In this document: piece after piece, positions 1,657-44,561 of the stretch
Numbering within the stretch: the first letter of the stretch is position 1
How the letters are laid out: the number at the start of each line of letters is the position of its first letter
Assembly: GCA_021822495.1 (NCBI GenBank)
Contig: JAKAQO010000005.1
Location: 42,548-106,547 of the forward strand
Source: a bacterium
GTDB lineage: Bacteria > Elusimicrobiota > Elusimicrobia > UBA1565 > UBA9628
Direction of reading: 5' to 3'
Length of the DNA stretch: 64,000 nucleotides
Notes under the pieces: generated by a model
What the model saw: the letters and a program-made list of their open reading frames with translations, nothing else
The model's database searches: none
Told to the model about the DNA's origin: nothing
Position numbers and translations under genes: made by a program

Positions 1657-1685
1657 TTGACAGCGGGGCCTTCGCGCTTTACACT
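1657..1685 (+). promoter_or_regulatory. Possible sigma70-like promoter: TTGACA, 17 bp spacer, TACACT
   Basis: TTGACA lies at 1657-1662 and TACACT at 1680-1685. The ORF tracker's TTG start at 1657 is in fact this -35 hexamer. If the promoter is real, the mRNA is leaderless or nearly so (ATG at 1693). Confidence 0.25.
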
Positions 1686-1692
1686 TAAGGGT

Positions 1693-4086
1693 ATGAGAAC
1701 AAAGTATTTTCTCGGGGCGTTTTTTTTAGCGACTCTTGAATTGGCAACGCTTTCTTCCTTTACGTTCGCGGATTCGGATTCAGATAACAACCAATATCTT
1801 CCGCCCCAGGTAGTTCAAAAAGAAGAGCTTAAAATTGCCGCCAAAAATGATGACATGGCGCCCATCGTGCTCCAGGTTAAAAACGACTATCAAGGCCGCC
1901 TAACGCCTGGCCAACTTCATAGTTTTGATCAATATGTCGCGTCTAGGGAAACTATTCGGGACAGTATCCGAAAATACATTCCTAATATTGATTTCAGCCA
2001 TCCCAATCAAGATCATCCTGAAATTTTGCAAGCCATTCAACAACATCCTGACCTCTATCAAAAAATGAACGTTTTTGGAAAAGAAAGCGCGCGGAATTTA
2101 GAAGCCATACAAGAAAACCCAAAAACAGGAGACCCTTTTCTTTCGGCGATTTTTAAAGCCGATGGTTTTGGACGAGATATCCTGAAGATTTACGCTCCCG
2201 GAGGCTCTCACAGTTCCGCCTCGCCGACAGCCGCCGATTACGTCCTTCAAGGGCGTTTAGCTTCTTCTTCCGGAGACAATAAGGCCGCGCTCAAAGACGC
2301 CAAGGCGGCAACGAAAATGGATCCCCAAAACGCCTCCGCCCAAACTTTACTCGCCCAGTCAGCCTTTCAAACCGGCAACTATCCCGAGGCGGCCTCCGCC
2401 GCCCAAGAAGTGTTGCAAAACCATCCCAAGGATAAAACCGCTTTGGCTATTTACGGACTCTCGGAAGGAAGAAATCCAAGAGTGGATGAACCTTCAACCT
2501 CTAACGCCGCGCCAAATTCCGCCATGCCTTTTCAATCCAACAGCTACGCCGCCGCGCAAGGCATCGCCTCTCCCGGAGATTCTCCTGCGGCATTGCCCAC
2601 AGCGCCCTCTTCCGTGCCCTTGGACGCCAATCTCGCTTTTCACATGGGAAATTACCGGGACGCCTTGGCCGGGGCCGATCAGGCGCTTAAGGCCAATCCG
2701 GCGGATATCGCGGCCAACCTCCTCGCCGCTGAGTCCTATGCGGGAATGGGAGATTACGGCAATGCCTTGAACATGGTCAAGGCGGGACTTCAGACCTCCC
2801 CGAACAGCCCCAGGCTTCTGAACCTGCGCTCGCAATATCTTTCAAGACAAGGGCGTTATCGCAAAGCTCTCGCATCTTCTGATGTAGTTCTCGAGGGGAA
2901 TCCCCAGAATGCCGAGGGATACTACAGCCGCGCCATGGCTTTAGCGGGAGTGGGAGACAGAAATGGGGTCATTGATTCTCTCAAAAGAGCCGCCGAGCTG
3001 GACATGAAATATCAGAAGCTTGCTCAAAAAGCCGCGAGCCTGCCCCTTAACTCAGACCTCAGGCTTTTATTTAACGGCCCCGGTAAAAAAGGATATTCTA
3101 GACTGGGCTTCTTGGGTCTTCCTTGGATTCCCAGGGTTAACACGCGGGGAAAAATGATTTTAGGAATTATTCTTTTGTCCTTGTCTGGCTTCATGTTTTT
3201 TGGAAGCAAAAAAACTTTTGCTCGTGCCAAATCTGAAATGCCCTTGCCTGAGTCCGAGGGAAAAACGATAATTCTCTCCGCCAATCGCATCGCCGGGCAA
3301 TATCAAATCGTTCGCCGAATTGGATCTGGAGGAATGGGCCTTGTGTATGAGGGGACCGACGTCAATTTGGGACGAAAGGTGGCCATTAAACATTTAAGAG
3401 AAGATTTAGCGGGCAACCCCCAGGAAAAAGCGCGTTTCTTGTCCGAAGCGCGTTTAGTTGCCTCCTTGGACCACCCCAATATTCTTCGCATTTATTCGAT
3501 TGCCGAGGAAAAAAATGAGGTCTATCTTATTTTTGAGTTCATCGAAGGGAAAACCTTGGAGGAATGGACTCAAGGACGCAAACTCAGTCTTTCCCAGACT
3601 TTTCAAGTCTTTAAGCCAGTAGCCCAGGCCTTGGATTATGCGCATGAAAAAGGCATTATCCACCGCGATATGAAGCCTTCCAATATCATGATTGGAAATA
3701 ACGGAGTCGTTCACGTGATGGATTTTGGAGTGGCCCGAGTAGCCAAAGACCCGTCGATGACCTCACAAATGACCAAAACCATCGTCGGCACTCCGGCTTA
3801 CATGGCGCCGGAAACCCAAGACGGGTTTGTCTCCAGGGAATCGGATATTTACGGCCTGGCGGTCTGCGTCTATGAATCTCTGACCGGCCAACTGCCTTTT
3901 GCCGCGACTCCCACGGGAACGGTCAATAAAATCAAACGCGTCTATCCCTTGCTTTCAGGCTTGGGCCTTCCCAAAACGATGGACCCTATTTTTAACCGCG
4001 CCTTTGACCCCAACCCCGCTTCGCGTTTTAAAAGCGCCAAGGAATTTATGTCGGAACTGGAGAAAACGGACGGAGTCGCGGTTTAG
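1693..4086 (+). CDS. Hanks-type Ser/Thr protein kinase with an N-terminal signal peptide and TPR periplasmic domain, one TM helix, and a C-terminal kinase domain
   Basis: Kinase motifs are all present: GSGGMGLVYEG, VAIKHL, HRDMKPSNIM, DFGVAR and GTPAYMAPE. TPR-like repeats occur upstream of the TM segment ILGIILLSLSGFMFF. The signal-peptide-like N-terminus is MRTKYFLGAFFLATLELATLSS. Confidence 0.8.
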   Translation: MRTKYFLGAFFLATLELATLSSFTFADSDSDNNQYLPPQVVQKEELKIAAKNDDMAPIVLQVKNDYQGRLTPGQLHSFDQYVASRETIRDSIRKYIPNIDFSHPNQDHPEILQAIQQHPDLYQKMNVFGKESARNLEAIQENPKTGDPFLSAIFKADGFGRDILKIYAPGGSHSSASPTAADYVLQGRLASSSGDNKAALKDAKAATKMDPQNASAQTLLAQSAFQTGNYPEAASAAQEVLQNHPKDKTALAIYGLSEGRNPRVDEPSTSNAAPNSAMPFQSNSYAAAQGIASPGDSPAALPTAPSSVPLDANLAFHMGNYRDALAGADQALKANPADIAANLLAAESYAGMGDYGNALNMVKAGLQTSPNSPRLLNLRSQYLSRQGRYRKALASSDVVLEGNPQNAEGYYSRAMALAGVGDRNGVIDSLKRAAELDMKYQKLAQKAASLPLNSDLRLLFNGPGKKGYSRLGFLGLPWIPRVNTRGKMILGIILLSLSGFMFFGSKKTFARAKSEMPLPESEGKTIILSANRIAGQYQIVRRIGSGGMGLVYEGTDVNLGRKVAIKHLREDLAGNPQEKARFLSEARLVASLDHPNILRIYSIAEEKNEVYLIFEFIEGKTLEEWTQGRKLSLSQTFQVFKPVAQALDYAHEKGIIHRDMKPSNIMIGNNGVVHVMDFGVARVAKDPSMTSQMTKTIVGTPAYMAPETQDGFVSRESDIYGLAVCVYESLTGQLPFAATPTGTVNKIKRVYPLLSGLGLPKTMDPIFNRAFDPNPASRFKSAKEFMSELEKTDGVAV

Positions 4087-4101
4087 AGTTGAGAGGAAAT
4101 T

Positions 4102-5697
4102 ATGTCTAAGGTTGATGTCATAGAAGCGAGACGAGCCCTGCGCCGAAAAAAGCGCGACAAGAAAGGCGGCGGGTTCTGGCTTTTGTGGAATAAAATTCGC
4201 TCTGCTTTGGGACTTGCCTCGGAAGAAGCGGGGGCTGGCGGCGCTTCAGCCGGAGGAAGTGCCCTATCCGGCGGTGGCGCGGCGGCCTCTGCCGCGTCAA
4301 GAGGAGCGGCGGAAGCTTTAGAAGCCGGACAAGGGCTCGGACGGGTTTCGGTTCTGAGTTCTGGCATGGCCACGCCCGCCTCTCAAAGTTCCATTTGGGC
4401 CACGCGCGCGGCTCTGGCGGCGGCGGGAATGGGGGTCGTCGCCGCGGGAGCGATTGGCTTTTCTCGCGCATTTTCAAATTCATCCGCCAAGGCCGGCCCG
4501 CATTTTGGCCCCATTGCGTCCCTAATTCATATTTTTAGGCCGCAATATGGAGCCTCAAAATCCTCCGCGAATTCCCTAGCCTCGGGAAATTCCGCCTCTT
4601 CCTTGGCTTCGCGCGCGGGCCAATCAAATTCCCCTAACTCCGGCAAAGCGGGAAAGGCCTCTTCCGCCAAAGACTCCGGAAAGACTGCGGCCTTTCCTTC
4701 CGCTTTCAACGGACTTCCTTCCGCCAAATTGAGCACGGATTTAAATGACGGCGGTCCCGTGGCCGCGCAATCTCTCAAAGAGGCAGGCCAAGGGGCGCAG
4801 GAAGCGGCCTTGGTTAAAAACGGTCAATTTAGCGCGAATAATAAAATTGCGGTCACCCCGATGGCGGCAGCGGCCTTATCGCCCTATCTTGTCGCCGGTG
4901 TCTCTATTGGAACCAAGGGCCGCGGCTTTAGCCGCTCTTACGGCGGCCTTCGCGGAATGTCGGAGTACGTTCACCCCATGGACGCTTCCGCCTCCGGATG
5001 CGCCTCGGGAGATTCTTCCTGCGATTCCGCCGCCGGGAACGCCATCAATCAATGGCAAAACGCGCCTATTGTCGAAAGCGGTCAAGGAATTTCAATGGGC
5101 GGCGCCAACGCTGGAACTTCGGATAATCCTCCACCGGCCAATTCTTCAAGCGGAGGCGGAGGGGGAAACACTGCCGGTAATTACGGCAACATGGCGGGAG
5201 ATATTTCCAATGTCTGTTCGGCCGATCAAATTCAAAAGGGATATGTCTCAAATGGCAATTCTTGCGTGCCCGGGTTTACGCCGGGTCAGAAAAATTCCAC
5301 CCCATGGCAAGCCCAGGTTGATTTAAGCAGACTTTTAACACAAATTGCCAGTGGCATTGTTATGGCAGCAGCGATTTATTTCCTACTTGCGGATATCTTA
5401 TTTGGTTCTGGATTTGGACCGCAAACCCTCATGGCAACTTATTTCCGTATGACTGCAAAGATTTTGGCCTGGGTCGCAGCCGCCATGGGAGTAGCAGTTA
5501 TTGGCCTTGGTGGATATATCGTTGCACAGGGTGGTGGAATGCAAGGTTGGACAAGCGTTATTACGGGTGGTATCATTACGACTTCGAGTGTTGTTGAAGC
5601 CATTGATCCTGCTGGTTTTACAAGCATGAATGAAACGATGCTCTTAACTTCTATCGCCTTGGGATCTGTTGTAACGATGCTCGCAAACTTACTATAG
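4102..5697 (+). CDS. Low-complexity Gly/Ala/Ser-rich membrane protein, paralog A
   Basis: A GAGAGG RBS precedes the start. The N-terminus is basic with a WLLWNKI motif, followed by a TM helix and a long G/A/S/N-rich region. A two-Cys motif GDISNVCSADQIQKGYVSNGNSCV is followed by three C-terminal TM helices. Confidence 0.6.
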   Translation: MSKVDVIEARRALRRKKRDKKGGGFWLLWNKIRSALGLASEEAGAGGASAGGSALSGGGAAASAASRGAAEALEAGQGLGRVSVLSSGMATPASQSSIWATRAALAAAGMGVVAAGAIGFSRAFSNSSAKAGPHFGPIASLIHIFRPQYGASKSSANSLASGNSASSLASRAGQSNSPNSGKAGKASSAKDSGKTAAFPSAFNGLPSAKLSTDLNDGGPVAAQSLKEAGQGAQEAALVKNGQFSANNKIAVTPMAAAALSPYLVAGVSIGTKGRGFSRSYGGLRGMSEYVHPMDASASGCASGDSSCDSAAGNAINQWQNAPIVESGQGISMGGANAGTSDNPPPANSSSGGGGGNTAGNYGNMAGDISNVCSADQIQKGYVSNGNSCVPGFTPGQKNSTPWQAQVDLSRLLTQIASGIVMAAAIYFLLADILFGSGFGPQTLMATYFRMTAKILAWVAAAMGVAVIGLGGYIVAQGGGMQGWTSVITGGIITTSSVVEAIDPAGFTSMNETMLLTSIALGSVVTMLANLL

Positions 5698-5718
5698 AAT
5701 TTTAATCTTGGAGGCTCT

Positions 5719-7302
5719 ATGAAAAAAGCCACGATTAATTTAAAAGAAATGCCGGGAAAAGTGATCAGTTCTCCGGCGAAAAAAGAGAAAAAAAGAGCCG
5801 GGCTTGCCTGGCTTTGGAGTAAAATTAAAGCCCCCTTTGTCGGCGCGACCGGCGGTGACGGCGCGGCCGGAGGTCTTGCATCCGCCTCTCGTGCGGGCGG
5901 AGTGTTGGAAGAAATCGGCAGTTCCGCCGCGGAAGAAGCCGGAGGCTTGGCCCGCGGAGCCGGAGAACTTGCGGAAGAAGCCGGAGGCTTAGGTCAACAA
6001 TTTGATGAACTCGCCGCGAGAGTCGCGGCCCGCTTAGGAGCGGAGGCTTCTCCCTGGGTCGGAAAAGCGATTATGGCGGCAATTACCGCCGGAGTCGTGG
6101 CAACCGGGGTTTTGGCCGCCCATCATTTAATGAGTGCCTCTGGAAGTTTAAAAACGCCTTACGGCGGCCCTATCGCTTCGGGAATTAACGCCCATCCATC
6201 GGGTCCCAATGCTATCGGAAACACCCCAACCGGTTATGTCGCTTCCAGAGCCAATACCGTAGCCGGAAATAATACCGCTACGCCCCAATCCGCCAAAACG
6301 CCCACTTCAGGAAAAACAGCGGTCCCCAATGTTCCTACTCCCTCAGGTGGGAAAACTCCAAATCTTGGGAGTCTCGCCATGCCTTCAAACGCCTCTTTTG
6401 GAGGCGGAGCTCCCATTGGGGGGGCGGGGGCCGCTCCTCAGTATATGGGTCAAGCCGCACAGGAAGCGGCGATGCAGAAAATTGCCTGGAAGCCTCAAGC
6501 AACAGTCACGGCCATGACTTCTCAAAACGCTAACATTAACAGGGGAAGCATGGGTTTTAGAGGCGGGCGGGCATTCAGGAATGGTCAAAGCTTGGCGGCC
6601 TTGCGCTCGGCGGTCGGCTATAATGCCGCGATGAACGGATACAGCAATGGCAATTCAGGTGCCGCGCAAAACGCCATCAATCAATTCGACAATCAGATGA
6701 CCTCGGGCGGCGGGATTTCCGCAGGAGGCATCACGACCGGAAGCGCGGATTCCGCCAATTCCGTAGGCGGACAAACTCCATCCATGATGGGGGGAGGCGG
6801 CGGAGGGAGCGGCTATGGCACGTCAAGCGCCGGAGATATCGGCCAAGTTTGCACGGCCGACCAACTTAGCAAGGGTTGGATTAGCAATGGGAGCGCTTGC
6901 GTTCAGCCGCCGGGCGCTGGTGGAGGCAACAATGCTTCCCCATGGCAATGGGCGCTTAACCTAGCTAATATGCTTCTTGGAATTGCGGGTTCACTCGTTA
7001 TCGTTGCTGGCATTCTTGTAGCGACTGGGTATGCAGACCCCGTTTTTCAAGGATGGCAAATACCAATTGGCGACATATTGGCAGGAATAGCGATTGGAAT
7101 GGGTGTTGCCGCTGCTTATTTGGCGACAAGGATCGGCTCAGCAGGCGGACATCAACAAGCTTTGATGGTTGGTCTTGAATCCATATCCGTCATCGCAGGC
7201 GGAGTTATGGTTTTCTTTGGTGGGACAGGTTGGGGTCTTTTCAATCTTGCCACGATAGCTCTTGGCGCCATGGCTGTGTTAGGGCCTCTGTTAGGTGGAT
7301 GA
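5719..7302 (+). CDS. Low-complexity Gly/Ala/Ser-rich membrane protein, paralog B
   Basis: A GGAGG RBS precedes the start. The architecture matches the upstream gene: WLWSKIK, GPIAS, NAINQF, the two-Cys motif GDIGQVCTADQLSKGWISNGSACV, and C-terminal TM helices. Confidence 0.6.
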   Translation: MKKATINLKEMPGKVISSPAKKEKKRAGLAWLWSKIKAPFVGATGGDGAAGGLASASRAGGVLEEIGSSAAEEAGGLARGAGELAEEAGGLGQQFDELAARVAARLGAEASPWVGKAIMAAITAGVVATGVLAAHHLMSASGSLKTPYGGPIASGINAHPSGPNAIGNTPTGYVASRANTVAGNNTATPQSAKTPTSGKTAVPNVPTPSGGKTPNLGSLAMPSNASFGGGAPIGGAGAAPQYMGQAAQEAAMQKIAWKPQATVTAMTSQNANINRGSMGFRGGRAFRNGQSLAALRSAVGYNAAMNGYSNGNSGAAQNAINQFDNQMTSGGGISAGGITTGSADSANSVGGQTPSMMGGGGGGSGYGTSSAGDIGQVCTADQLSKGWISNGSACVQPPGAGGGNNASPWQWALNLANMLLGIAGSLVIVAGILVATGYADPVFQGWQIPIGDILAGIAIGMGVAAAYLATRIGSAGGHQQALMVGLESISVIAGGVMVFFGGTGWGLFNLATIALGAMAVLGPLLGG

Positions 7303-7412
7303 TTGGAGTCTCGGGGGAGTCTTAGGAGTCTTAGGGACACATCACCTAATTGAATGTCCTGTCGCCGGGTTGCCGGGATTAAGTATTGTGTCCCTAGAAT
7401 TTCCCCAGAAAC

Positions 7413-7447
7413 ATGTTATACTAAAGTATAACTTTAATATAACATGT
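7413..7447. promoter_or_regulatory. Palindromic operator/promoter overlapping the start codon of the DUF4143 ATPase gene
   Basis: The sequence is CATGTTATACTAAAGTATAACTTTAATATAACATG. It contains inverted repeats CATGTTATA/TATAACATG and an inner GTTATAC/GTATAAC pair, with TATAAT-like elements. Confidence 0.4.
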
Positions 7448-8589
7448 ATAAAAGAATCCAGACTTTAAAAAATTTGGGGCGGGATTCTTGTTTTCTTTGG
7501 GGAGCCAGGCAAACCGGAAAAAGCACGCTTTTGGGACGTCTCTTTCCGGATTCTCGAAAATACGATCTCCTTCTTTCCGATGAATTCGCGCGCTTGTCGA
7601 CCCGCCCTTCGCTTCTCAGGGAAGAAATTCTGGAGTCTCCGCTCCCACATAAGCCGGTCATTATTGATGAGGCGCAGAAAATTCCATCTCTTCTTGATGA
7701 GGCTCAATGGCTCATCGTCAATAAAGGCATTCAATTTATTTTTTGCGGCTCAAGCGCTAGAAAACTTAAAAGGGGCGGGGCCAATCTTTTAGGCGGACGC
7801 GCCCTTCGTTATGATCTTTTTCCTCTTGTCTATCCGGAAATTCCGGATTTCGACCTCTTGCGCGCGCTCAATAACGGCCTCATTCCAAGGCATTACCAAT
7901 CCGATCACGCCCCGGATCTTTTGCGCTCCTATGTCGGCGATTATTTGAAAGAAGAGATTTACGCTGAAGCCGCGGTTCGGCGAATTCCGGCTTTTTCGCG
8001 TTTTCTGGAAGCCTCGGCATTCAGCAACGGAGAAATAGTTAATTTTCAGAATATCGCCGCCGAATGCGGCGTCAGCGGCCCGACCGTCAAACAATATTTT
8101 CAAATTCTTGAAGACACGCTGTTGGCGAGATTTATTTCCTCATTTCGGAAAAAGCCCAAACGACGCGTGGTGCAAGCGCCGAAGTTTTATTTTTTCGATG
8201 TCGGACTCGCCAACTTCCTTCTTAATCGCGGAAAAATCTTGCCCAAAAGCGAGTCGTTTGGAAAGGCTTTCGAACATTTTATCTGCCAGGAAATCTCGGC
8301 TCACAGCCATTACTCGGGGCTCCATTACCCAATTTATTATTGGCGAACCTCCTCTCAATTCGAAGTCGATTTTATCCTGGGAGATCATCAAGTCGCCGTG
8401 GAGATTAAGGCGGCGGAGCGGGCGGAAGAGCGGCATCTAAAGGGCATTCGCGCATTTCGAGAAGAATATAAAACCCAGAAGGCGATTCTCGTCTCCTTGG
8501 ATCCAAGGCCGCGCGTCATTGATGGGGTTTCCATTCTCCCTTGGAAAGAATTTCTCTCCCGGCTTTGGGCCGAAGAAATTATTTATTAA
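7444..8589 (+). CDS. AAA+ ATPase of the AAA_14 + DUF4143 family
   Basis: Walker A is GARQTGKST and Walker B-like is IIDEAQKIP. The C-terminal region is typical of DUF4143. Confidence 0.65.
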   Translation: MYKRIQTLKNLGRDSCFLWGARQTGKSTLLGRLFPDSRKYDLLLSDEFARLSTRPSLLREEILESPLPHKPVIIDEAQKIPSLLDEAQWLIVNKGIQFIFCGSSARKLKRGGANLLGGRALRYDLFPLVYPEIPDFDLLRALNNGLIPRHYQSDHAPDLLRSYVGDYLKEEIYAEAAVRRIPAFSRFLEASAFSNGEIVNFQNIAAECGVSGPTVKQYFQILEDTLLARFISSFRKKPKRRVVQAPKFYFFDVGLANFLLNRGKILPKSESFGKAFEHFICQEISAHSHYSGLHYPIYYWRTSSQFEVDFILGDHQVAVEIKAAERAEERHLKGIRAFREEYKTQKAILVSLDPRPRVIDGVSILPWKEFLSRLWAEEIIY

Positions 8590-8649: not shown

Positions 8650-9828
8650 TTACAGATCAATCAGCAGGGAAGGCTGAGAGAGAATCTTCTCAACTGAAAG
8701 AACCGCAACTCCATTTCCAAGAGAATAATCTTCTTTCCCGGGGTAAAGAACATACCCCTGATCCAACTTTAAGTCCCGCATACAGGCAAAAATTCCCGGG
8801 ACATCTTCCCTGCGCGGATTTCCGTTCAATTTAATCTCAAAAGGAAGAAGGCGACTCCCATGGGCAAGAAGGAGATCAACCTCATAACTGGCCGTTCTTA
8901 AAAAATAGGCTTGTCTTGAGGGAGCGTTGAGTTGAAAGAAAGATAAAATTTCCTCGATGACGAAGGATTCCCAGCTGGATCCCCGGGCGGGGTGCGAAAA
9001 AAGAGATTCCGAACCCGCGATTCCCAGGAAATAATGCAGAAGACCGGTGTCTCGAAAATAGATTTTTGGGCTTTTGACCAAACGCTTTCCAATATTGGCG
9101 AAATAAGGCCTAAGAACGCGAATCATGAAGGCTTGCTCTAAAATTCCAACGTAGCGGTTGACGGTGTGGTAGCTGACGCCGAGACTTGAAGCCAGTTGAG
9201 ACGCGTTCCAAATCCCGCCGTTGACATGGGCCAGCATGGTCCATAACCGCCGCATATCCAAGGAAGAAACTTCGACTTTGAGAGCGGACAAGTCCCTCTC
9301 AATCCATGTGCGCGTATAAGCCTCGAACCAATCCATCCGAGCGGAAGACGACCGGCTTAAGAAAACGTCAGGAAAGCCGCCGCGAAACCAGAGATTTTCT
9401 AATGTAAAATCGCGCCTTTGCCCGCGCACCTCATCCCAGCGAAATGGAGTCAGATCAAGAAAGCCAACGCGGCCGGCCAAACTCTCGGAAATTCCGCGAA
9501 CCAAGGCCGGAGAAGCCGAGCCCAGTAAAATTAGGCGTCCGTTTTGGCGATGGCCTGAATCCAAGAAGCTTCTCAAAACGGGAAAAAGGTTGGGCTGACG
9601 CTGAGCCTCGTCCAGGATAAAACGGGAGCCAAGACGGTTTAAGGCGTCTTCCGGATCGGCAATGAAGCGAGCGGCGTCGGAGGGTTTTTCCAAATCAAAA
9701 TAAGACCAGCGCGGAAAGGCAGAACGGATAAAGGTCGTTTTTCCGCATTGACGCGGACCAAGAAGACATACGGCGGGAAATTCCCGCAGGAGTTTTTTAA
9801 GGCGCCCCTCGAAATGACGCTCAATCAT
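8650..9828 (-). CDS. AAA+ ATPase of the AAA_14 + DUF4143 family; divergent paralog, convergent with the 7444 gene
   Basis: Walker A is GPRQCGKTT and Walker B-like is ILDEAQRQP. Confidence 0.65.
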   Translation of the reverse strand: MIERHFEGRLKKLLREFPAVCLLGPRQCGKTTFIRSAFPRWSYFDLEKPSDAARFIADPEDALNRLGSRFILDEAQRQPNLFPVLRSFLDSGHRQNGRLILLGSASPALVRGISESLAGRVGFLDLTPFRWDEVRGQRRDFTLENLWFRGGFPDVFLSRSSSARMDWFEAYTRTWIERDLSALKVEVSSLDMRRLWTMLAHVNGGIWNASQLASSLGVSYHTVNRYVGILEQAFMIRVLRPYFANIGKRLVKSPKIYFRDTGLLHYFLGIAGSESLFSHPARGSSWESFVIEEILSFFQLNAPSRQAYFLRTASYEVDLLLAHGSRLLPFEIKLNGNPRREDVPGIFACMRDLKLDQGYVLYPGKEDYSLGNGVAVLSVEKILSQPSLLIDL

Positions 9829-10177: not shown

Positions 10178-10606
10178 TCAAGACGGAAAAGCGAATCCTT
10201 TCGTTTCAAAGCCCATCGCCTGAGCCGCAAGGCCCATTCGAACGTCATGAGTTAAAATCGTGAGCTTATCTTTAATTTTCTGCTCGCAAAGAAGAGCGCT
10301 GGCCAAATGAATGGCGTCCAAAGAGCCGACGATGGTCGGAAAAGCCCGAGACGCCGCCTTGAGGACCGCTTCATTCAGAGAAATCGTCGAAGTTGAATCA
10401 AGAACCATCCCCAATAAGCGCGTTTTTTCCGAGACTTCCTCATCTTTTAGTTTTCCTTCCAGCCTCAGCCGGTCCAAGGTTCTTAAAGACTCAAGGCGAG
10501 TGATAGCGCTGGTGTAGCCTTCCTCCCAGCGTCCCCATTCTTTAATCGCCTCCGGTTGCCCCAGAAGTTTTCTTAGGATGACTGATGAATCTAAATAGGC
10601 CTTCAC
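10178..10606 (-). CDS. vapC: PIN-domain ribonuclease toxin VapC
   Basis: MKAYLDSSVIL..DAIHLASAL..ILTHD gives the PIN acidic residues. The start overlaps the upstream antitoxin stop by 4 bp. Confidence 0.65.
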   Translation of the reverse strand: MKAYLDSSVILRKLLGQPEAIKEWGRWEEGYTSAITRLESLRTLDRLRLEGKLKDEEVSEKTRLLGMVLDSTSTISLNEAVLKAASRAFPTIVGSLDAIHLASALLCEQKIKDKLTILTHDVRMGLAAQAMGFETKGFAFPS

Positions 10607-10863
10607 CTGCGACCCCGCTCCTCCCTCAAAAGATTGGTTACGTCAATTCTTTGCTTAACGGGCTTAATTTTAAGATTTCTAATCCGGGCGGGAGTTTTGA
10701 CAGCCGGAATTAAAACCGCCTCAAAGCCATTTCCGCCTCTAAAGGGTTCCACTTTGGCGACGGAAGTTTTTCTGTCCATGACGATCAATTCGTCCCCTTC
10801 TTTAACCCGGCTCAAATAAAAGCTAAGCCGGGCTTTTAAATCGGCAATATTAACCCAAATCAT
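10603..10863 (-). CDS. Antitoxin partner of VapC, Phd/YefM-like
   Basis: A short ORF, MIWVNIADLKARLSFYLSRVKEGDELIVMDRKTSVAKVEP, resembles the Phd/YefM N-terminus. I prefer the internal Met at 10863 over the ORF tracker's start at 10953. Confidence 0.45.
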   Translation of the reverse strand: MIWVNIADLKARLSFYLSRVKEGDELIVMDRKTSVAKVEPFRGGNGFEAVLIPAVKTPARIRNLKIKPVKQRIDVTNLLREERGRR

Positions 10864-10929
10864 GACTATAGGATAGTCATAAATAGACATATTGTCAATG
10901 GGGAGGTCCAAATTTAGTAAAATGAAAAA

Positions 10930-11703
10930 ATGTTCCGAATCGGCATCATCCAAAATAGTCCCCGCTTTCTCAAGGTCAAGGAAAACATCCTTGACGCCTT
11001 TTCCTTAATGGAAAAAAGCCGGGCGGATTTATGGGTTTTGCCGGAATTTTTCGCGACGGGATATAATTTTAAAACGAGAAAAGAAGTCTCTTCCGTGGCC
11101 GAGCCCATTTCCGGCGGGATGACTTGCGGCCTCTTAAGTTCCTGGGCGAAAAAAAACAACTGCGCCGTGGCCGCGGGTCTGCCTGAAAAATCGGGCAGCC
11201 GAATTTATAATTCAGCGATCTTGATTACCCCGTCTTCTCTCCATGTTTACCGAAAAACACACCTTTTCGGAGACGAGAAAAAATTCTTTTCTCCCGGAAA
11301 CACCGGTTTTTGGGTTAAGCCTTTTAAGAATGTCAAAATTGGAGTCATGATCTGTTTTGACTGGTTTTTTCCGGAATCCGCCCGAACCTTGGCCTTAAAA
11401 GGCGCCCAAATCATCGCCCATCCCGCCAACCTTGTTTTGCCCTGGGCGCCGGACGGAATGAAAATTCGCAGTCTTGAAAACCGGGTTTTTGCGGCCACAG
11501 CCAACCGCGTTGGAAATGAAAGAGGTCTTCGCTATATCGGCTCATCCCAAGTAACCACCCCCAGGGGAGAAGTTGTGTTTCGCCTCGGCGCAAATAAAGC
11601 CGGGATGTCGGTGGCCACAATTGACGAAAAACTCGCTCTTCAAAAAAATATCAACAAGAAAAATAATCTCTTTAAAGACCGGAGGCCGAAGTTTTATGCC
11701 TGA
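10930..11703 (+). CDS. Carbon-nitrogen hydrolase (nitrilase superfamily)
   Basis: The E-K-C triad context is present: LPEFF, RKTHLF and MICFDWFFPE. Confidence 0.7.
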   Translation: MFRIGIIQNSPRFLKVKENILDAFSLMEKSRADLWVLPEFFATGYNFKTRKEVSSVAEPISGGMTCGLLSSWAKKNNCAVAAGLPEKSGSRIYNSAILITPSSLHVYRKTHLFGDEKKFFSPGNTGFWVKPFKNVKIGVMICFDWFFPESARTLALKGAQIIAHPANLVLPWAPDGMKIRSLENRVFAATANRVGNERGLRYIGSSQVTTPRGEVVFRLGANKAGMSVATIDEKLALQKNINKKNNLFKDRRPKFYA

Positions 11704-19536: not shown

Positions 19537-21714
19537 TTACGGAATGGAAATCCGGCCGCCAGAAAGGGTTAATCCAGCTGGAATAATTTTAAAGGGATGA
19601 ACGGAATCAGCTTCCAAGGGGAATTTCTCTTTCGCCCACATCTCAAGCAAAAAATGGGGTATCGGCGCCCGCCACAAGCGCAACGACTCCAACGAAACAA
19701 TTAAATCTTGCCCGCCTTGCGCCGAATCTCCTGAAATCCTTGCGCTCACTTTGGCCTGGATTGGAATTTTTCCCCACTGAGCGCTTAAATTTAAATTTTT
19801 GTCAATGGACAAACTCTTCACAGCCATATTCGGGAGGAGGCCTTGGATAAAGCCGGATAAATCAGCGGATGAGATTTGGGCCGAGGAAATGTCTGCCTCA
19901 TTCATCTTCAGAAAACGAAAATCCCCGTTCCATTTTTCTTTCTCATTGAGGACTGGAATGAGAGAAAGGTCTTTCATCTCGATTCTCAAATTCGAAACAG
20001 CAACCCCCTTGACGCGAATGAGCGCGGCCGAAAGTTCCGCATGAGGATAAGAAGCGCTTTGAAAGTCCCAATCTCCTAAGTTCAGCGTCACATCTTCAGC
20101 TTCCGCGTTCTTGGTGGAATAAAGTTGAAAGTGAATCTTTTTTTCGCGAAAAGGCGGCGCTTTGAGCTGCTTTTGCTTAAACAAAATAGCCAGGCTGTCA
20201 TCTGGAAGCCGCCACTGAGCGGCCTGTTCATAATTTAAGAGAAACCAGCCGTCCGGATCAAAAACAGTTTTTCGCGCGTCTTTAAGCCCGCCAGACGCAG
20301 GCCCTAAATGTCCATTCTTAAGCAAAAGAAATTCCGAGAATTCGCATAATCTTTTTTGAGGGAGAACGACGCTCATCTGTTTAAGCCCCAAAACGTCTTT
20401 CATCCATTTCAGATTAAACTCGTTAAAATAAGCGGCATTGGAAACGAGGGTTATGGGGTTGATAATTCGTTTTGAATCTGAAAGCTGGGCGGCGGTTTCC
20501 AAGACGCTTTTGAGATACCAGCGCTGATTAAGCGGCGGGTTCTGGGGAAAAAGAGAAATTTCGTGGATTGGGGTCGGAATATCCAAGGGCGAGACCCAAT
20601 GCGTATTAAAATTGGCGATGGTCAGAATTTGAAACCCGGCGGCAAGCCATAAAACCGTATTGGGCCAAGCGGATACCGCGGCAACCACAAGGCCTGAAAG
20701 CCCTGGAAGCAAAAACCCCAATTCTTTATCAGGAACGAGCGTCCAGAAAATATAGGAAGAAACGACCATCGCTAAAATCACCCAGCCCCAATCCCGGTGG
20801 CGCTTATATTGCGCCGTTAAAATTCCTGCCAGTCCCAAGGCCCAAACCAGAGGGCCCAAGCCGTCCATCATTTTAAAAAGATAAGCGATGACCCCGCCGT
20901 TTAGAAAAGGAATCGCTAAAGAATGAGCGGCTTCAAAAAAGCCAGATATGACAAACGGAAAATGGTAGAGATACCAAGGCGAAAAAAAGAGAAGAGACAG
21001 CGCCATGGCGGAGGTAATTTTCCAGCGCTTATTTGGGAATTTAAGATTCCCCGCAGCCGCCACAAGAATGGGGATGAAATAAGAAAAAAAGCTTTCCTTC
21101 ATCAACATCCCGGCGGCAAAGAGAACGCCGAAAAGAAGGCTTCCAACCCATTTTGAAAAACCCTCCGAAACCAGAAACGCCCATAACGCCGCCGCGGCCA
21201 AAGCCGACACCGGCAAGTCCCAAACCCGGGTTGTCATCATTCTCCAAATAACAGGAGAAGCGCAAAAAGAAACGACGGCCAAAACCGCGGTATAATCTGG
21301 CCTAAAAAAATAGGAGGAAGCAAAAATTGAAAGGCACAAGAGGATAAAGTAAGCGTAATTGACCCACAAGGCCGCCTGCGCGGGATGGGCGCCAGAACAA
21401 GCGAAAATCAAGCTGAGAGGATAAAGCGGGGGAGTTTCGCCGCCCGCAGATGGAGACAAGGAAATAACTTTTTTAAGGCTGAGATTTCCGTTCTGATAGT
21501 CCCGCCAGTAGTTCCAGGCAAAGTCCAGCTGCCGCGATTCAGTCCAAGAGGGGGGAAGCGAGTCTTCGGCGATAAAAGACTTAAGAAGAAGGCCCTCCCA
21601 AAAAATAAAGGCGAAAAGCCCGGCAAGGCTCAGGCCCAGCATTAGAATTTTTTTGTTGCGGGCTTTCTTAAGGGCGACTAAGTCTTCCTCATACCCGGCT
21701 ATTGAGTTGGACAT
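19537..21714 (-). CDS. Polytopic membrane glycosyltransferase (GT39/GT83 ArnT/PMT_2-like) with a C-terminal soluble domain
   Basis: About 11 N-terminal TM helices in a PMT_2-like arrangement, followed by a roughly 330-aa soluble C-terminal region. Confidence 0.4.
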   Translation of the reverse strand: MSNSIAGYEEDLVALKKARNKKILMLGLSLAGLFAFIFWEGLLLKSFIAEDSLPPSWTESRQLDFAWNYWRDYQNGNLSLKKVISLSPSAGGETPPLYPLSLIFACSGAHPAQAALWVNYAYFILLCLSIFASSYFFRPDYTAVLAVVSFCASPVIWRMMTTRVWDLPVSALAAAALWAFLVSEGFSKWVGSLLFGVLFAAGMLMKESFFSYFIPILVAAAGNLKFPNKRWKITSAMALSLLFFSPWYLYHFPFVISGFFEAAHSLAIPFLNGGVIAYLFKMMDGLGPLVWALGLAGILTAQYKRHRDWGWVILAMVVSSYIFWTLVPDKELGFLLPGLSGLVVAAVSAWPNTVLWLAAGFQILTIANFNTHWVSPLDIPTPIHEISLFPQNPPLNQRWYLKSVLETAAQLSDSKRIINPITLVSNAAYFNEFNLKWMKDVLGLKQMSVVLPQKRLCEFSEFLLLKNGHLGPASGGLKDARKTVFDPDGWFLLNYEQAAQWRLPDDSLAILFKQKQLKAPPFREKKIHFQLYSTKNAEAEDVTLNLGDWDFQSASYPHAELSAALIRVKGVAVSNLRIEMKDLSLIPVLNEKEKWNGDFRFLKMNEADISSAQISSADLSGFIQGLLPNMAVKSLSIDKNLNLSAQWGKIPIQAKVSARISGDSAQGGQDLIVSLESLRLWRAPIPHFLLEMWAKEKFPLEADSVHPFKIIPAGLTLSGGRISIP

Positions 21715-42159: not shown

Positions 42160-42827
42160 TATGAAAAAAAGGGGACAGTCCCCTTTTTGGGGGAAATCTC
42201 GAAAAAGGGGACTGTCCCCTTTTTTGGCCGCCCGATGCGGCGCTCAAGCCCCATTTCCTCTCTTATCTCTTGCTCACGCTCACCACCATACACTATTTCT
42301 TTATAAAAATAAGCCCTCTCCTGGGCAGAATTTCCAAGAGATAAATAACCTGGGCTTTCCTCCAGAAAAGGGGACTGTCCCCTTTTTCCTGTATAGAATC
42401 CATAGCTGGACCAAGAGTAATCTTCCGGTTTTTTCACGATGGCTGCGCGAACGGGGTTTAACTCAATATAACGGCCACAGAAAAGCAGGCTTCTCTCCGT
42501 TGGCAACAAGACGCTTTTATAACGCCCCTGCCAGAGATGACCCACCAGAGAATTTTTTCCTCGGAAATAATCGGAATATCCCTGCAAAAGTCTTTGCATC
42601 GCCTTACCCAGGTCTTCCGCTTTTTGAACTTGAGCTAAGAAATGAACATGATTTGGCATTAGGACATAATGATACAGGTGAAAAGGATTTTTTTTCTTCG
42701 CCCATTTCAGAAGAGCTAAGAATTTTTCATAATCTAAATCTTCCTGAAATATCTTCTGTCGGTTATTCCCACGAGCCATCAGATGATAAAACATTCCCTC
42801 AAGCACATTTCTCCTCTGTCTTGGCAT
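42153..42827 (-). CDS. IS200/IS605-family Y1 tyrosine transposase of the REP-associated type (RAYT)
   Basis: The HuH motif is MPNHVHFL and the catalytic Tyr context is GHLWQGRYKS. One REP (42370-42382) is inserted in frame, giving GKRGQSPF. The ORF has no stop until it has read through the downstream REP doublet (..KKGTVPFFEISPKKGTVPFF). Confidence 0.7.
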   Translation of the reverse strand: MPRQRRNVLEGMFYHLMARGNNRQKIFQEDLDYEKFLALLKWAKKKNPFHLYHYVLMPNHVHFLAQVQKAEDLGKAMQRLLQGYSDYFRGKNSLVGHLWQGRYKSVLLPTERSLLFCGRYIELNPVRAAIVKKPEDYSWSSYGFYTGKRGQSPFLEESPGYLSLGNSAQERAYFYKEIVYGGEREQEIREEMGLERRIGRPKKGTVPFFEISPKKGTVPFFSYQ

Positions 42828-42960
42828 ATCACCCCTCCTTTCCGCCTAGATTCTCTGCTATATTTCATACGGCAGAAACACAAAAAAAGTTCCCTCAAAA
42901 AAAGGGACAGTCCCTTTCTCGGTTAAAATTCCTAAAAAAAGGGACTGTCCCTTTTTTCTT
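42161..42960. mobile_element. RAYT-REPIN unit: RAYT gene flanked by inverted REP doublets (42165-42235 and 42897-42960)
   Basis: Downstream doublet cores are at 42171-42183 and 42207-42219. Upstream doublet cores are at 42904-42914 and 42941-42951. This is the classical genomic context of REP-associated tyrosine transposases. Confidence 0.6.
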
Positions 42961-44485: not shown

Positions 44486-44552
44486 AAAAAAGGGGACAGT
44501 CCCCTTTTGGGGACATTTCTTTAAAAAAGGGGACAGTCCCCTTTTTTCTTTG
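44483..44552. repeat. REP doublet in direct orientation (cores 44492-44504 and 44529-44541, both GGGGACAGTCCCC)
   Basis: Both central bases are A, whereas the other doublets are inverted (A...T). The doublet follows the stop of the outer-membrane protein gene. Confidence 0.55.
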
Positions 44553-44561
44553 GAGGTTGTC

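What the first reader, a model, noticed from the sequence alone, without database searches (positions are those of the whole stretch)
4102..7302. Tandem pair of paralogous Gly/Ala/Ser-rich membrane proteins with a conserved two-Cys motif, immediately downstream of the Ser/Thr kinase
Both proteins (531 and 527 aa) share the same architecture. Each begins with a basic N-terminus carrying a W(L)LW(N/S)KI motif, then a TM helix, a GPIAS motif, and a low-complexity G/A/S/N region of several hundred residues. A conserved NAINQ(W/F) box follows, then a nearly identical cysteine motif, G-D-I-(S/G)-x-V-C-(S/T)-A-D-Q-(I/L)-x-K-G-(Y/W)-(V/I)-S-N-G-(N/S)-(S/A)-C-V. Each ends with three TM helices. Both have strong RBSs and are co-directional with the kinase, only 15 bp downstream of it. 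They resemble no family I recognise. They could be kinase substrates, or cell-envelope or sheath proteins.
Basis: seen in the sequence. Interest (0 to 1): 0.6.

Follow-up and report, generated by a model that had tools for sequence, protein, structure and literature searches.

The report
Kinase-linked membrane proteins with swappable modules
Two neighbouring genes encode real, related membrane proteins of a family found only in the little-known phylum Elusimicrobia; they follow a signalling kinase, belong to a larger uncharacterised gene cluster, and carry a membrane-embedded end piece that strains swap like a cassette, a pattern usually seen in recognition or conflict systems.

Summary
They match nothing in Pfam, NCBIfam, PADLOC, PHROGs, PDB sequences or PDB and viral structures.

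They are not orphans. An exhaustive profile search finds about 65 representatives, and every named one is an Elusimicrobia hypothetical protein. In other lineages the homologues (g2, X, Y) lie in a conserved co-directional cluster, STK-g1-g2-X-Y-g5-g6-g7-g8. It is headed by a membrane-anchored Ser/Thr kinase and no other component has a known domain. The window carries a reduced kinase-A-B version.

The "low-complexity" middle is predicted to be disordered, yet it is under purifying selection as strong as the kinase's (dN/dS 0.12 vs 0.11). The C-terminal four-helix membrane bundle is a polymorphic cassette. Two strains are 99-100% identical up to ...NASPWQNDLQTA and about 40-55% identical after it. 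Other pairs show the reverse pattern.

Best reading: A and B are inner-membrane subunits of a new kinase-coupled envelope module whose membrane bundle determines specificity. Their function is inferred, not shown.

The parts
1657..4086 (+). Ser/Thr protein kinase that heads the module (809 aa). Layout: signal/TM segment, periplasmic TPR repeats (about residues 190-460), TM helix (498-516), then a C-terminal cytoplasmic Hanks-type kinase domain (545-805).
   Evidence: Pkinase E=7e-52 plus several TPR families. Hydropathy segments. The VAIK, HRD, DFG and APE motifs are visible in the translation. The TM-then-kinase layout is shared by all cluster kinases. Kinase-domain identity to the other cluster kinases is 39-44%.
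4087..4101 (+). 15-nt spacer between the kinase and A, with a GAGAGG ribosome-binding site.
   Evidence: No terminator-like site lies between the genes.
4102..5697 (+). Protein A (531 aa), a member of the Elusimicrobia-specific g2/X/Y membrane-protein superfamily.
4102..4206 (+). A: basic N-terminal helix (residues 1-35; 12 K+R in the first 40) that contains WLLWNKI (4177-4197). Predicted cytoplasmic.
   Evidence: Helix 3-35 with pLDDT about 77. Charge count. K21, G24 and W27 are invariant or nearly so across 46 family members.
4402..4476 (+). A: first transmembrane helix (about residues 101-125).
   Evidence: Hydropathy peak at 103-121. Helix 94-125.
4477..5196 (+). A: G/A/S/N-rich periplasmic region (residues 126-365). 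It is predicted to be disordered but carries conserved short motifs: GPIAS, LPSAKLS, QEAA, LRGM, NAINQW and GISMGG. It also holds the extra Cys pair C300/C307.
   Evidence: pLDDT below 50. Mean pairwise identity among A orthologues 77.5%. For the whole pre-PWQ part, dN/dS is 0.12 against 0.11 for the kinase. Motif coordinates. Equivalent motifs in distant members.
5197..5310 (+). A: Cys-bridged helix-beta-hairpin (C372...C388) followed by N-S-T-P-W-Q (PWQ at 5302-5310). This is the conserved left border of the variable cassette.
   Evidence: pLDDT 85-87, strands 381-384 and 387-390. The Cys pair and PW are invariant. The identity drop starts at about 5311. Base-level breakpoint in related strains.
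5311..5697 (+). A: polymorphic C-terminal four-helix membrane module (residues 404-531) with the conserved GGxxQG loop (5530-5547).
   Evidence: pLDDT 91-97 for three of the helices. Mean 34% identity among orthologues whose N-parts are 73-99% identical. Nucleotide identity to L002 is 33-52% here against about 82% upstream. P0020 vs P0024: 99% in the N-part, 39% in the module.
5698..5718 (+). 21-nt spacer between A and B, with a GGAGG ribosome-binding site. Together with the last codons of A and the first codons of B it forms the conserved right flank of the A cassette.
   Evidence: Identity recovers to 67-73% from about 5671.
5719..7302 (+). Protein B (527 aa), paralogue of A with the same architecture: basic N-terminus with WLWSKI (5809-5826), TM1 (about 6061-6129), constrained disordered region, Cys hairpin (6832-6903) and PWQ (6940-6948).
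   Evidence: Full-length profile match to family Y (hhalign E=7e-16).
6949..7302 (+). B: polymorphic C-terminal four-helix membrane module with a GGHQQA loop (7144-7161).
   Evidence: Mean 31% identity among B orthologues. P0012 vs P0015: 90% in the N-part, 25% in the module. Nucleotide mosaic between L038 and L039.

Best explanation
A and B are two paralogous inner-membrane proteins of an undescribed superfamily restricted to Elusimicrobia (A, B, g2, X, Y). They work with the membrane-anchored Ser/Thr kinase encoded just upstream. The trio is a reduced version of a conserved nine-gene envelope cluster, STK-g1-g2-X-Y-g5-g6-g7-g8.

Architecture. This is partly shown by sequence, selection analysis and the structure model. 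The topology is inferred.
- A basic cytoplasmic N-terminal helix and a Ser/Thr-bearing tail.
- One TM helix.
- A periplasmic tether of about 240-280 residues. It is intrinsically disordered, but its short linear motifs are under strong purifying selection.
- A disulfide-stapled helix-hairpin.
- The N-x-T-P-W-Q box.
- A four-helix bundle buried in the membrane.

Shown: the bundle is a polymorphic cassette. Strains exchange it by homologous recombination, with the left breakpoint a few codons after PWQ. A and B draw on separate allele pools, and their modules assort independently.

Inferred mechanism: the conserved tail, tether and hairpin connect each protein to invariant partners. These would be the kinase on the cytoplasmic side, which probably phosphorylates or docks on the tail, and the kinase's TPR domain or other envelope proteins on the periplasmic side. 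The variable bundle acts as an intramembrane specificity determinant. It either recognises a variable ligand or partner, or escapes a variable antagonist. Its state is reported through the kinase.
For: Family and context:
- A and B are homologous.
- Each has only 9 close clusters among 5.8 billion proteins. About 65 representatives are found by exhaustive profile search, and about 30 of them are full-length and keep every motif.
- All named members come from Elusimicrobia.
- g2, X, Y, A and B form one superfamily (hhalign probability 94-100%).
- The conserved order STK-g1-g2-X-Y-g5-g6-g7-g8 is seen in L008, L020, L025, L029, L031 and L032. L030 keeps STK-g2-X-Y. In L009 the kinase also sits just upstream of g1. 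L023 is rearranged.
- All cluster kinases share the TM-then-C-terminal-kinase layout. The window kinase is 39-44% identical to them.
- The gaps are 15 and 21 nt with no terminator, so the three genes look like one operon.

Architecture:
- Hydropathy, charge and Cys positions.
- AlphaFold with 46 sequences gives pLDDT about 77 for the N-helix, below 50 for residues 37-363, 85-87 for the hairpin and 91-97 for the bundle.

Constraint on the 'low-complexity' part: dN/dS is 0.12 against 0.11 for the kinase.

Cassette:
- Region-wise identities and discordant pairs.
- The same behaviour in g2 and X of a second clade.
- A sharp nucleotide breakpoint at PWQ against L002.
- L038 and L039 are 100% identical through the kinase end and the start of A, 40-55% in the A module, 90-98% in the B middle and 43-70% in the B module.
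- At base level these two are identical through NASPWQNDLQTA and then unrelated.

Other points:
- Conserved Ser/Thr columns in the tails.
- Precedent for variable membrane-spanning specificity subdomains: IdsD/IdsE (PMC4471559).
Against: - There is no experimental or co-evolutionary evidence that the kinase touches A or B. The conserved N-terminal box itself has no conserved Ser/Thr.
- The TPR domain is absent from several cluster kinases (L008, L020, L025, L030). TPR binding of the tether therefore cannot be general.
- Three lineages have no kinase within reach of the cluster. Instead they carry an FtsH-like ATPase or a two-component system.
- The other cluster genes (g1, g5-g8) are not in this 64-kb window. 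I could not test whether they occur elsewhere in the genome.
- The positive-inside rule gives no signal for the orientation of the bundle, which is almost uncharged. Its topology rests on TM1 and the Cys positions.
- The A and B modules do not co-vary (Spearman 0.28, not significant, 6 genomes). An A-B allele-specific pairing is therefore unlikely, and the partner or antagonist of the bundle is unknown.
- The saturated synonymous divergence in the module may be inflated by uncertain alignment at about 27% identity.
- TM helices tolerate substitution, so some of the divergence could be neutral.
Confidence: 0.45

Rival explanations
1. Neutral mosaic. A and B are ordinary structural or scaffold membrane proteins of a lineage-specific envelope complex. 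The C-terminal helices need only be hydrophobic, so they drift fast. Occasional homologous recombination between strains then produces the mosaic pattern without any specificity function.
For: Only a few positions in the bundle are conserved: NxTPWQ, LG..I and GGxxQG....GG. The bundle is nearly uncharged. The fold searches find only generic helical bundles. No partner gene co-varies with the modules.
Against: Drift alone predicts module divergence that scales with divergence of the rest of the protein. Instead strains with 99% identical N-parts carry modules 39% identical, and strains with 86-92% N-parts share modules 96-98% identical. The borders are base-sharp. Deep allele classes persist within one narrow clade and recur in independent assemblies. 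The same behaviour is seen in g2 and X of another clade. Long-term maintenance of many old alleles is the usual signature of balancing or diversifying selection.
Confidence: 0.2
2. Arms-race target. The variable bundle is the part of an inner-membrane protein that phages or bacteriocin/CDI-type toxins exploit for entry. Allele replacement is escape from those antagonists, and the kinase signals envelope damage.
For: Polymorphism with recombination. The A and B modules assort independently, as expected if each is targeted separately. A caspase-like peptidase and TPR proteins, common in conflict systems, are inserted in the cluster in L008, L009 and L017.
Against: No phage, toxin or defence gene is linked to the pair in the window. 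PADLOC finds nothing apart from generic kinase-domain matches. PHROGs and the phage and plasmid searches are negative. Variation affects the whole buried bundle, not only the exposed loops.
Confidence: 0.15
3. Polymorphic toxin or effector. The conserved N-part is a delivery and anchoring region. The post-PWQ hydrophobic bundle is a pore-forming toxin domain released, perhaps by proteolysis, into competitors.
For: A conserved N-part, a conserved border motif and then a hypervariable C-terminal module exchanged by recombination is the hallmark of polymorphic toxin systems (PMC3482391, abstract listed). Searches show that pattern here. A caspase-like protease is present in some clusters.
Against: No immunity-like gene follows A or B. 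B starts 21 nt after A, and the region downstream of B differs between genomes. No orphan cassettes are found. All modules are homologous variants of one fold and share a conserved GGxxQG loop, unlike the unrelated toxin folds of true polymorphic toxins. There is no toxin or trafficking domain in Pfam. The N-terminal TM anchor and strongly hydrophobic helices predict retention in the producer's own membrane. No secretion system is linked.
Confidence: 0.1
4. Self/non-self recognition pair of the Ids type. A and B bind each other through their variable membrane bundles in an allele-restricted way.
For: Two adjacent genes encode membrane proteins with variable membrane-spanning subdomains, as in IdsD/IdsE (PMC4471559).
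Against: The modules of A and B assort independently. Genomes sharing a 97% identical A module have B modules only 53% identical. Genomes sharing a 95% identical B module have A modules only 38% identical. There is no T6SS or other export system nearby and no sequence similarity to the Ids proteins. A and B are paralogues, whereas IdsD and IdsE are unrelated to each other.
Confidence: 0.07

Closest known systems
Proteus mirabilis IdsD/IdsE self-identity proteins (PMC4471559)
   Same: Adjacent genes encode membrane proteins. Strain-to-strain variation is concentrated in subdomains predicted to span the membrane, and in Ids these determine binding specificity.
   Different: No sequence or fold relationship. 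Ids depends on type VI export, and nothing of that kind is linked here. IdsD and IdsE are unrelated to each other and co-vary as cognate pairs, whereas A and B are paralogues whose modules assort independently. The variable unit here is a whole four-helix bundle of about 125 residues, not a 20-30-residue stretch.
Polymorphic toxin systems (CdiA, Rhs, LXG and others; PMC3482391)
   Same: A conserved N-terminal part, a short conserved border motif (here N-x-T-P-W-Q) and a C-terminal module replaced by recombination, with base-sharp breakpoints.
   Different: No immunity gene, no orphan cassettes, no trafficking or toxin domain, and no secretion system. All modules are divergent versions of a single hydrophobic fold.
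Hypervariable agr locus of staphylococci (AgrB/AgrD/AgrC specificity groups). Comparison from my own knowledge; not checked in a paper here.
   Same: A polytopic membrane module that exists as deep allele classes with sharp borders, coupled to a conserved kinase output.
   Different: The kinase here is a separate Hanks-type Ser/Thr kinase, not a histidine kinase fused to the variable module. No peptide-signal gene lies between or beside the variable segments.
TolA/TonB-type envelope tethers. Comparison from my own knowledge; the only tool result is a weak sub-threshold TolA hit for paralogue X, E=2e-4 at 20.7 bits against a cut-off of 59.
   Same: An N-terminal inner-membrane anchor followed by a long low-complexity periplasmic segment.
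   Different: No TolA or TonB C-terminal domain and no ExbBD/TolQR-like partner. The chain returns to a hydrophobic four-helix bundle instead of ending in a soluble domain.
Membrane-associated partners of Hanks-type kinases in actinobacterial and firmicute pknB operons. Comparison from my own knowledge.
   Same: Co-transcribed with a transmembrane Ser/Thr kinase. Cytoplasmic tails carry conserved Ser/Thr residues.
   Different: No FHA protein or PP2C phosphatase is seen next to the kinase in the window or in the clusters examined. The kinase has the inverted layout, with the extracytoplasmic domain first and the kinase last. The partner proteins are unrelated.

Membership tests
Any curated protein family (Pfam-A, NCBIfam, PADLOC, PHROGs) | Significant profile match | tested here: not met
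   No family matches A or B at E<=1 in Pfam or NCBIfam. Across 25 family members there are only scattered noise hits. PADLOC and PHROGs give nothing.
Any solved structure | Sequence or fold similarity to a PDB chain | tested here: not met
Polymorphic toxin systems | Conserved N-terminal region, then a variable C-terminal module exchanged by recombination at a conserved border motif | tested here: met
Polymorphic toxin systems | Cognate immunity gene immediately downstream of the toxin module | tested here: not met
   B starts 21 nt after A. Downstream of B there is a 141-nt gap and then a DUF4143 ATPase in the window, but a CN_hydrolase or PIN genes in relatives.
Polymorphic toxin systems | Unrelated toxin folds at the C-terminus, plus orphan cassettes | tested here: not met
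   All 84 modules align as one family with conserved NxTPWQ and GGxxQG. No orphan module is found in six-frame searches of the window and 33 loci.
Polymorphic toxin systems | Trafficking domain or a linked secretion system (T5/T6/T7, PrsW, etc.) | tested here: not met
   No such domain in A, B or the cluster proteins. None is seen in the parts of the window I annotated.
Ids-type self-recognition pair | Variable membrane-spanning subdomains in two adjacent proteins | tested here: met
Ids-type self-recognition pair | Cognate alleles of the two proteins co-vary | tested here: not met
   Independent assortment across 6 genomes. The sample is small, and A-B pairing was partly inferred from shared contig lengths.
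Diversity-generating retroelement target | Template repeat near the variable region, a reverse transcriptase, and adenine-specific changes | tested here: not met
   No repeat of either cassette anywhere in the 64-kb window. Alleles differ at about 50-60% of all nucleotide positions, not only at adenines.
TolA/TonB-type tethers | C-terminal TolA_III or TonB_C domain and ExbBD/TolQR partners | tested here: not met
   No such Pfam or NCBIfam hit for A or B. X has only a sub-threshold low-complexity TolA hit.
Hanks-type Ser/Thr kinase (the upstream gene 1657-4086) | Pkinase domain with catalytic motifs | tested here: met
   PF00069 E=7e-52. VAIK, HRD, DFG and APE are present in the translation.
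   Only indirect support: operon structure, phylum-wide synteny and conserved Ser/Thr in the tails.
Elusimicrobia STK-g1-g2-X-Y-g5-g8 cluster (defined here) | Membership of the g2/X/Y superfamily, located directly downstream of the TM-anchored kinase | tested here: met
   hhalign probability 94-100%. The Y profile hits A at 1e-128 and B at 1e-120, although that profile included A and B themselves. Kinase layout and identity.
Elusimicrobia STK-g1-g2-X-Y-g5-g8 cluster (defined here) | Presence of g1, g5, g6, g7 and g8 | tested here: not met
   No hit at E<=1e-5 in the 64-kb window or in L001-L004. The rest of the genome could not be searched.

The most novel reading that the evidence does not exclude
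Elusimicrobia possess a previously unrecognised, kinase-coupled recognition system embedded in the membrane. In it, interchangeable four-helix transmembrane cassettes on two or three tandem paralogues act as strain-identity or ligand-specificity determinants. A Hanks-type Ser/Thr kinase reads them out, and they are wired to a nine-gene envelope apparatus that includes a protein of about 3,000 residues. If so, this is a new kind of bacterial allorecognition or conflict machinery with no homologue outside the phylum.
Probability: 0.2. Interest if true: 0.85.

Novelty: categorically new. Interest (0 to 1): 0.68.

Why it matters
Three points make this more than another pair of hypothetical proteins.

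1. It defines a protein superfamily confined to one phylum, and a conserved nine-gene cluster headed by a kinase. Apart from the kinase, no component has a recognisable domain, so a whole piece of Elusimicrobia envelope biology is undescribed.

2. It is a clean natural example of an apparently disordered, low-complexity segment under purifying selection as strong as that on an enzyme. This warns against dismissing such regions as compositional noise.

3. The hypervariable, recombining unit is an intramembrane helical bundle with a base-sharp border. Polymorphic cassettes are well known for soluble toxin domains and surface loops. Whole membrane-embedded bundles behaving this way are rare; Ids is the nearest case. 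If the bundle proves to be a specificity determinant read by a Ser/Thr kinase, that would be a new signalling logic, and a testable one because alleles can be swapped at the PWQ border.

Tried and rejected
- **Spurious low-complexity ORFs:** rejected. Shuffle z-scores, orthologues in more than 10 assemblies and dN/dS of 0.12 all argue against this.
- **Mobile-element origin:** no relatives in the plasmid or phage collections.
- **Retroelement-driven (DGR) hypervariation:** no template repeat, and substitutions occur at all four bases.
- **Silent-cassette shuffling within a genome:** no orphan modules found.
- **Exchange of modules between A and B:** modules stay within their own paralogue's pool. 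The one weak exception is P0008, whose nearest modules are B-type at 32-33% identity.
- **The window's own 2,544-aa ORF (34525-42159) as the cluster's giant protein g8:** rejected. It is an Ig/beta-propeller/DUF6242 protein with no similarity to g8.
- **Topology of the bundle from the positive-inside rule:** inconclusive, because the bundle has almost no charges.
- **Natural X-Y fusion (P0111, 986 aa, L008) as evidence that the paralogues interact:** not used. Several other genes in that long-read assembly are split, so an indel artefact is likely.
- **Literature:** two full-text searches and the main Elusimicrobia comparative-genomics paper mention neither the family nor the cluster.
- **First metagenome scan:** it failed because the alignment was too divergent. 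It was repeated with a tighter alignment.

Full report
**1. Observation**

The window holds two co-directional ORFs at exactly the reported coordinates: A (4102-5697, 531 aa) and B (5719-7302, 527 aa). They follow an 809-aa protein (1657-4086) that combines TPR repeats with a Pkinase domain (E=7e-52). The gaps between the genes are 15 nt and 21 nt. A GAGAGG site precedes A and a GGAGG site precedes B. No terminator-like site lies between the three genes.

A and B align over almost their whole length: 32% identity, E=5e-25 with compositional adjustment. Against composition-preserving shuffles the alignment score has these z-values:

| Region | z |
|---|---|
| Full length | 29.6 |
| Cys motif | 19.6 |
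| G/A/S-rich middle alone | 9.2 |
| N-terminal box | 5.2 |
| C-terminal membrane region | 3.4 |

There are two corrections. First, the C-terminus has four helices rather than three. Second, A has an extra conserved Cys pair, C300/C307.

**2. What family is it?**

Nothing matches in any of the following:
- Pfam or NCBIfam at E<=1;
- PADLOC or PHROGs;
- PDB sequences, by single sequence or by profile;
- solved or viral structures;
- the plasmid or phage collections.

A word-indexed search of 5.8 billion proteins returns only nine clusters for each paralogue. All are unnamed, and several share contigs with the other paralogue's orthologue, so the tandem pair is conserved.

An exhaustive profile search of 1.84 billion representatives finds 65 proteins at E<=1e-3. 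About 30 of them are full-length proteins of 490-570 aa. They keep the whole architecture and an equivalent of every motif:
- a basic N-terminal box (DLKKKEKERKKAG.AW);
- one TM helix;
- LG.I(A/S)S;
- LSGAKLS..LGG;
- ALAQLRGM.PYN..MR;
- AA..QFEG;
- a Cys-x(10-16)-Cys pair;
- N-V-T-P-W-Q;
- a hydrophobic C-terminus with GG.PQG.

Every hit that carries a source name is a hypothetical protein from Elusimicrobia/Elusimicrobiota.

**3. Genomic context**

In the window's own clade the order GH15-like, EIIA-like, kinase, A, B is conserved (L001-L004, L034-L039). These genomes are close relatives, however.

The informative comparison is with distant members. They sit in a co-directional cluster whose parts recur by profile search:

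| Component | Size (aa) | Features |
|---|---|---|
| STK | 305-780 | TM helix directly before a C-terminal kinase domain; N-terminal TPR region in some lineages |
| g1 | about 335-370 | one TM helix at each end |
| g2 | about 495-510 | same build as A/B |
| X | about 490-535 | same build as A/B |
| Y | about 520-580 | same build as A/B |
| g5 | about 470-600 | N-terminal anchor, Cys-rich C-terminus |
| g6 | about 790-870 | anchor plus coiled coil |
| g7 | about 850-1120 | signal peptide |
| g8 | 2600-3100 | signal peptide |

- The kinase directly precedes g1 or g2 in L008, L009, L020, L025, L029, L030, L031 and L032. It is rearranged in L023.
- Three lineages lack a kinase within reach: L006/L007 and two related contigs, L017, and L018/L019. 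Some of these carry a two-component system and an FtsH-like ATPase upstream instead.
- All cluster kinases place a TM helix immediately before a C-terminal kinase domain. The periplasmic TPR part is present only in some.
- The window kinase is 39-44% identical to them in the catalytic domain.
- g2, X, Y, A and B are one superfamily (hhalign probability 94-100%). A and B are each other's closest relatives (E=2e-41), and B aligns with Y over its full length.
- None of g1 or g5-g8 has a Pfam, NCBIfam or PADLOC match, and none is found in the 64-kb window.

The window therefore carries a reduced kinase-A-B version of the cluster.

**4. Architecture**

- The first 40 residues hold 12 Lys+Arg. One hydropathy peak follows at about residue 103-121 in A and 117-135 in B.
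- All Cys residues lie between that helix and the C-terminal hydrophobic region.
- AlphaFold with 46 family members gives:

| Residues (A) | Element | pLDDT |
|---|---|---|
| 3-35 | N-terminal helix | about 77 |
| 37-363 | mostly unstructured | below 50 |
| 368-390 | helix plus beta-hairpin, placing C372 and C388 on the hairpin | 85-87 |
| 403-501 | three long helices | 91-97 |
| 509-530 | fourth helix | 66-74 |

- The inferred topology is N-terminus in the cytoplasm, a long periplasmic loop with a disulfide-stapled hairpin, then a four-helix bundle in the inner membrane.
- The positive-inside rule cannot confirm the orientation of the bundle, because the bundle is almost uncharged.

**5. Evolution: the unexpected part**

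Among orthologues the predicted-disordered part is well conserved and the membrane bundle is not:

| Region | Identity among A orthologues |
|---|---|
| Residues 1-404 | 73-99% |
| Residues 405-531 | mean 34% |

The two parts are phylogenetically discordant:

| Pair | N-part identity | C-module identity |
|---|---|---|
| P0001 / P0002 (A) | 86% | 27% |
| P0003 / P0004 (A) | 91% | 36% |
| P0004 / P0006 (A) | 86% | 97% |
| P0012 / P0015 (B) | 90% | 25% |
| P0012 / P0013 (B) | 87% | 95% |
| P0020 / P0024 (A) | 99% (395 aa) | 39% |
| P0020 / P0026 (A) | 92% | 98% |

Selection against the closest genome, L002:

| Region | dS | dN | dN/dS |
|---|---|---|---|
| A before PWQ | 0.72 | 0.08 | 0.12 |
| Kinase | 0.76 | 0.08 | 0.11 |
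| A after PWQ | saturated (pS 0.78) | pN 0.52 | not computable |

The saturated synonymous value may be partly an alignment effect at such low identity.

Nucleotide identity to L002 is about 82% up to position 5310, which is the PWQ codons. It is 33-52% across 5311-5670 and 67-73% again across the A 3' end, the spacer and the B start.

The clearest case is L038 against L039:

| L038 coordinates | Region | Nucleotide identity |
|---|---|---|
| 3720-4200 | kinase 3' end and A 5' end | 100% |
| 4200-5220 | A N-part | 90-100% |
| 5220-5580 | A module | 40-55% |
| 5580-5760 | A 3' end, spacer, B start | 62-78% |
| 5760-5940 | part of B's cytoplasmic tail | 15-33%, with indels |
| 5940-6780 | B middle | 90-98% |
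| 6780-7320 | B hairpin and module | 43-70% |

At base level the two strains are identical through AAT GCT TCG CCG TGG CAA AAT GAT TTA CAG ACG GCG AA (NASPWQNDLQTA) and unrelated afterwards.

Further points:
- g2 and X of a second clade behave in the same way.
- Modules stay within their own paralogue's allele pool.
- A and B modules assort independently.
- There are no orphan cassettes in the window or in the 33 loci held at the time of the search, and no template repeat.
- Across 84 modules only N-x-T-P-W-Q, LG..I and GG..QG......GG are conserved.

**6. Interpretation**

Shown:
- A and B are real, constrained, paralogous membrane proteins of a phylum-specific superfamily.
- They are linked to a distinctive membrane-anchored Ser/Thr kinase across much of the phylum.
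- Their C-terminal bundle is a polymorphic cassette exchanged by homologous recombination, with a fixed left border just after PWQ.

Inferred:
- The cytoplasmic tail, which carries conserved Ser/Thr columns, is the kinase's docking site or substrate.
- The tether's conserved short motifs bind invariant periplasmic partners.
- The bundle is an intramembrane specificity determinant.

Which selective agent maintains the alleles cannot be decided here. It could be a partner, a ligand, a phage or a toxin.

The nearest functional analogue is IdsD/IdsE, where variable membrane-spanning subdomains set allele-restricted binding (PMC4471559). The lack of A-B co-variation argues against a simple Ids-like pairing.

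The polymorphic-toxin pattern is matched in form but fails on immunity gene, orphan cassettes, toxin fold and trafficking.

Neutral drift plus recombination remains a serious rival. It explains poorly the coexistence of near-identical and very old module alleles within one narrow clade.

**7. Novelty and limits**

I found no description of the family or the cluster in the curated libraries or in the literature I searched.

Limits:
- All genomes are metagenome-assembled.
- The function is untested.
- The rest of the window's genome could not be searched for the missing cluster genes.
- AFDB-scale fold comparison was unavailable.
- The co-variation test rests on six genomes.

Noticed in passing
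window 44241-47075 (+): A 944-aa ORF (longest-ORF call) combines histidine-kinase domains (HisKA and HATPase_c, residues 195-420) with FliF_C-like, FliG_M and FliG_C domains (residues 564-917). That would be a histidine kinase fused to a flagellar-switch-like module, with no flagellar genes evident nearby. It overlaps the preceding ORF by about 245 nt, so the true start may lie further downstream.
   Followed up: no
window 34525-42159 (+) and 42161-44485 (+): A 2,544-aa protein with DUF6242, Ig-like, beta-propeller and fn3 domains and a C-terminal FlgD_ig-like domain, followed by a 774-aa TPR protein. It is unrelated to the giant protein g8 of the Elusimicrobia cluster.
   Followed up: partly
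window 7444-8589 (+) and 8650-9828 (-): Two convergent paralogous genes lie immediately downstream of B; they hit each other at E about 1e-25. The first is an AAA_14/DUF4143 ATPase by direct Pfam scan, and the second carries the same Pfam marks on the gene called in L034. Both are absent from the same position in L003, L004, L038 and L039, so they look like an insertion in this strain.
   Followed up: partly
window 10178-10953 (-): A small two-gene pair of 142 aa and 116 aa. The orthologous 142-aa gene in L039 is marked PF01850 (PIN), so this is probably a VapBC-type toxin-antitoxin pair. It is present in L003, L005 and L039 but absent in L004 and L038.
   Followed up: no
L003 7375-9864 and L039 1881-4469 (B orthologues P0016 and P0015): In some strains B is 830-862 aa long. 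A Q/N-rich extension of about 300 residues, probably coiled-coil, follows the membrane bundle. In these alleles the replaced segment also includes the Cys hairpin.
   Followed up: partly
L038 5613-7307 vs L039 1881-; also P0013 and P0014: B has a second variable segment in its cytoplasmic tail. Some alleles duplicate the basic WLW box (GGLAWIWNKI...ALFWLWSKI). Nucleotide identity there falls to 15-33% between otherwise near-identical strains.
   Followed up: partly
L008 9007-9846, L009 2981-4162, L017 8158-9828: A caspase-like peptidase (Peptidase_C14, with ankyrin repeats in L009) is inserted inside the cluster next to X or Y in three lineages. This hints at a proteolytic or conflict-type accessory function.
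   Followed up: no
L008 2782-3372 (-), L023 5131-5799 (-), L029 2649-3296 (-), L031 2564-3349 (-): A divergently oriented gene of about 200-250 aa with no Pfam match lies directly upstream of the cluster kinase in four loci. It may be a further component or a regulator.
   Followed up: partly
L008 10001-12961 (P0111, 986 aa): X and Y are called as a single fused protein in a 3.1-Mb contig. Several other cluster genes in that locus are split, so the fusion may be an assembly indel and not a true gene fusion.
   Followed up: no
L002 (contig ends 123 nt after A), L035-L037 (contigs end inside B): Several independent assemblies break inside or just before B. This is consistent with co-existing strain variants disrupting assembly at the polymorphic segments, but low coverage could explain it as well.
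   Followed up: no
window 5290-5310 and 6928-6948; family-wide: The border motif is usually N-x-(S/T)-P-W-Q, which formally contains an N-x-S/T sequon. Whether the Asn is modified is unknown. A PMT_2-type glycosyltransferase gene lies at 19537-21714.
   Followed up: no
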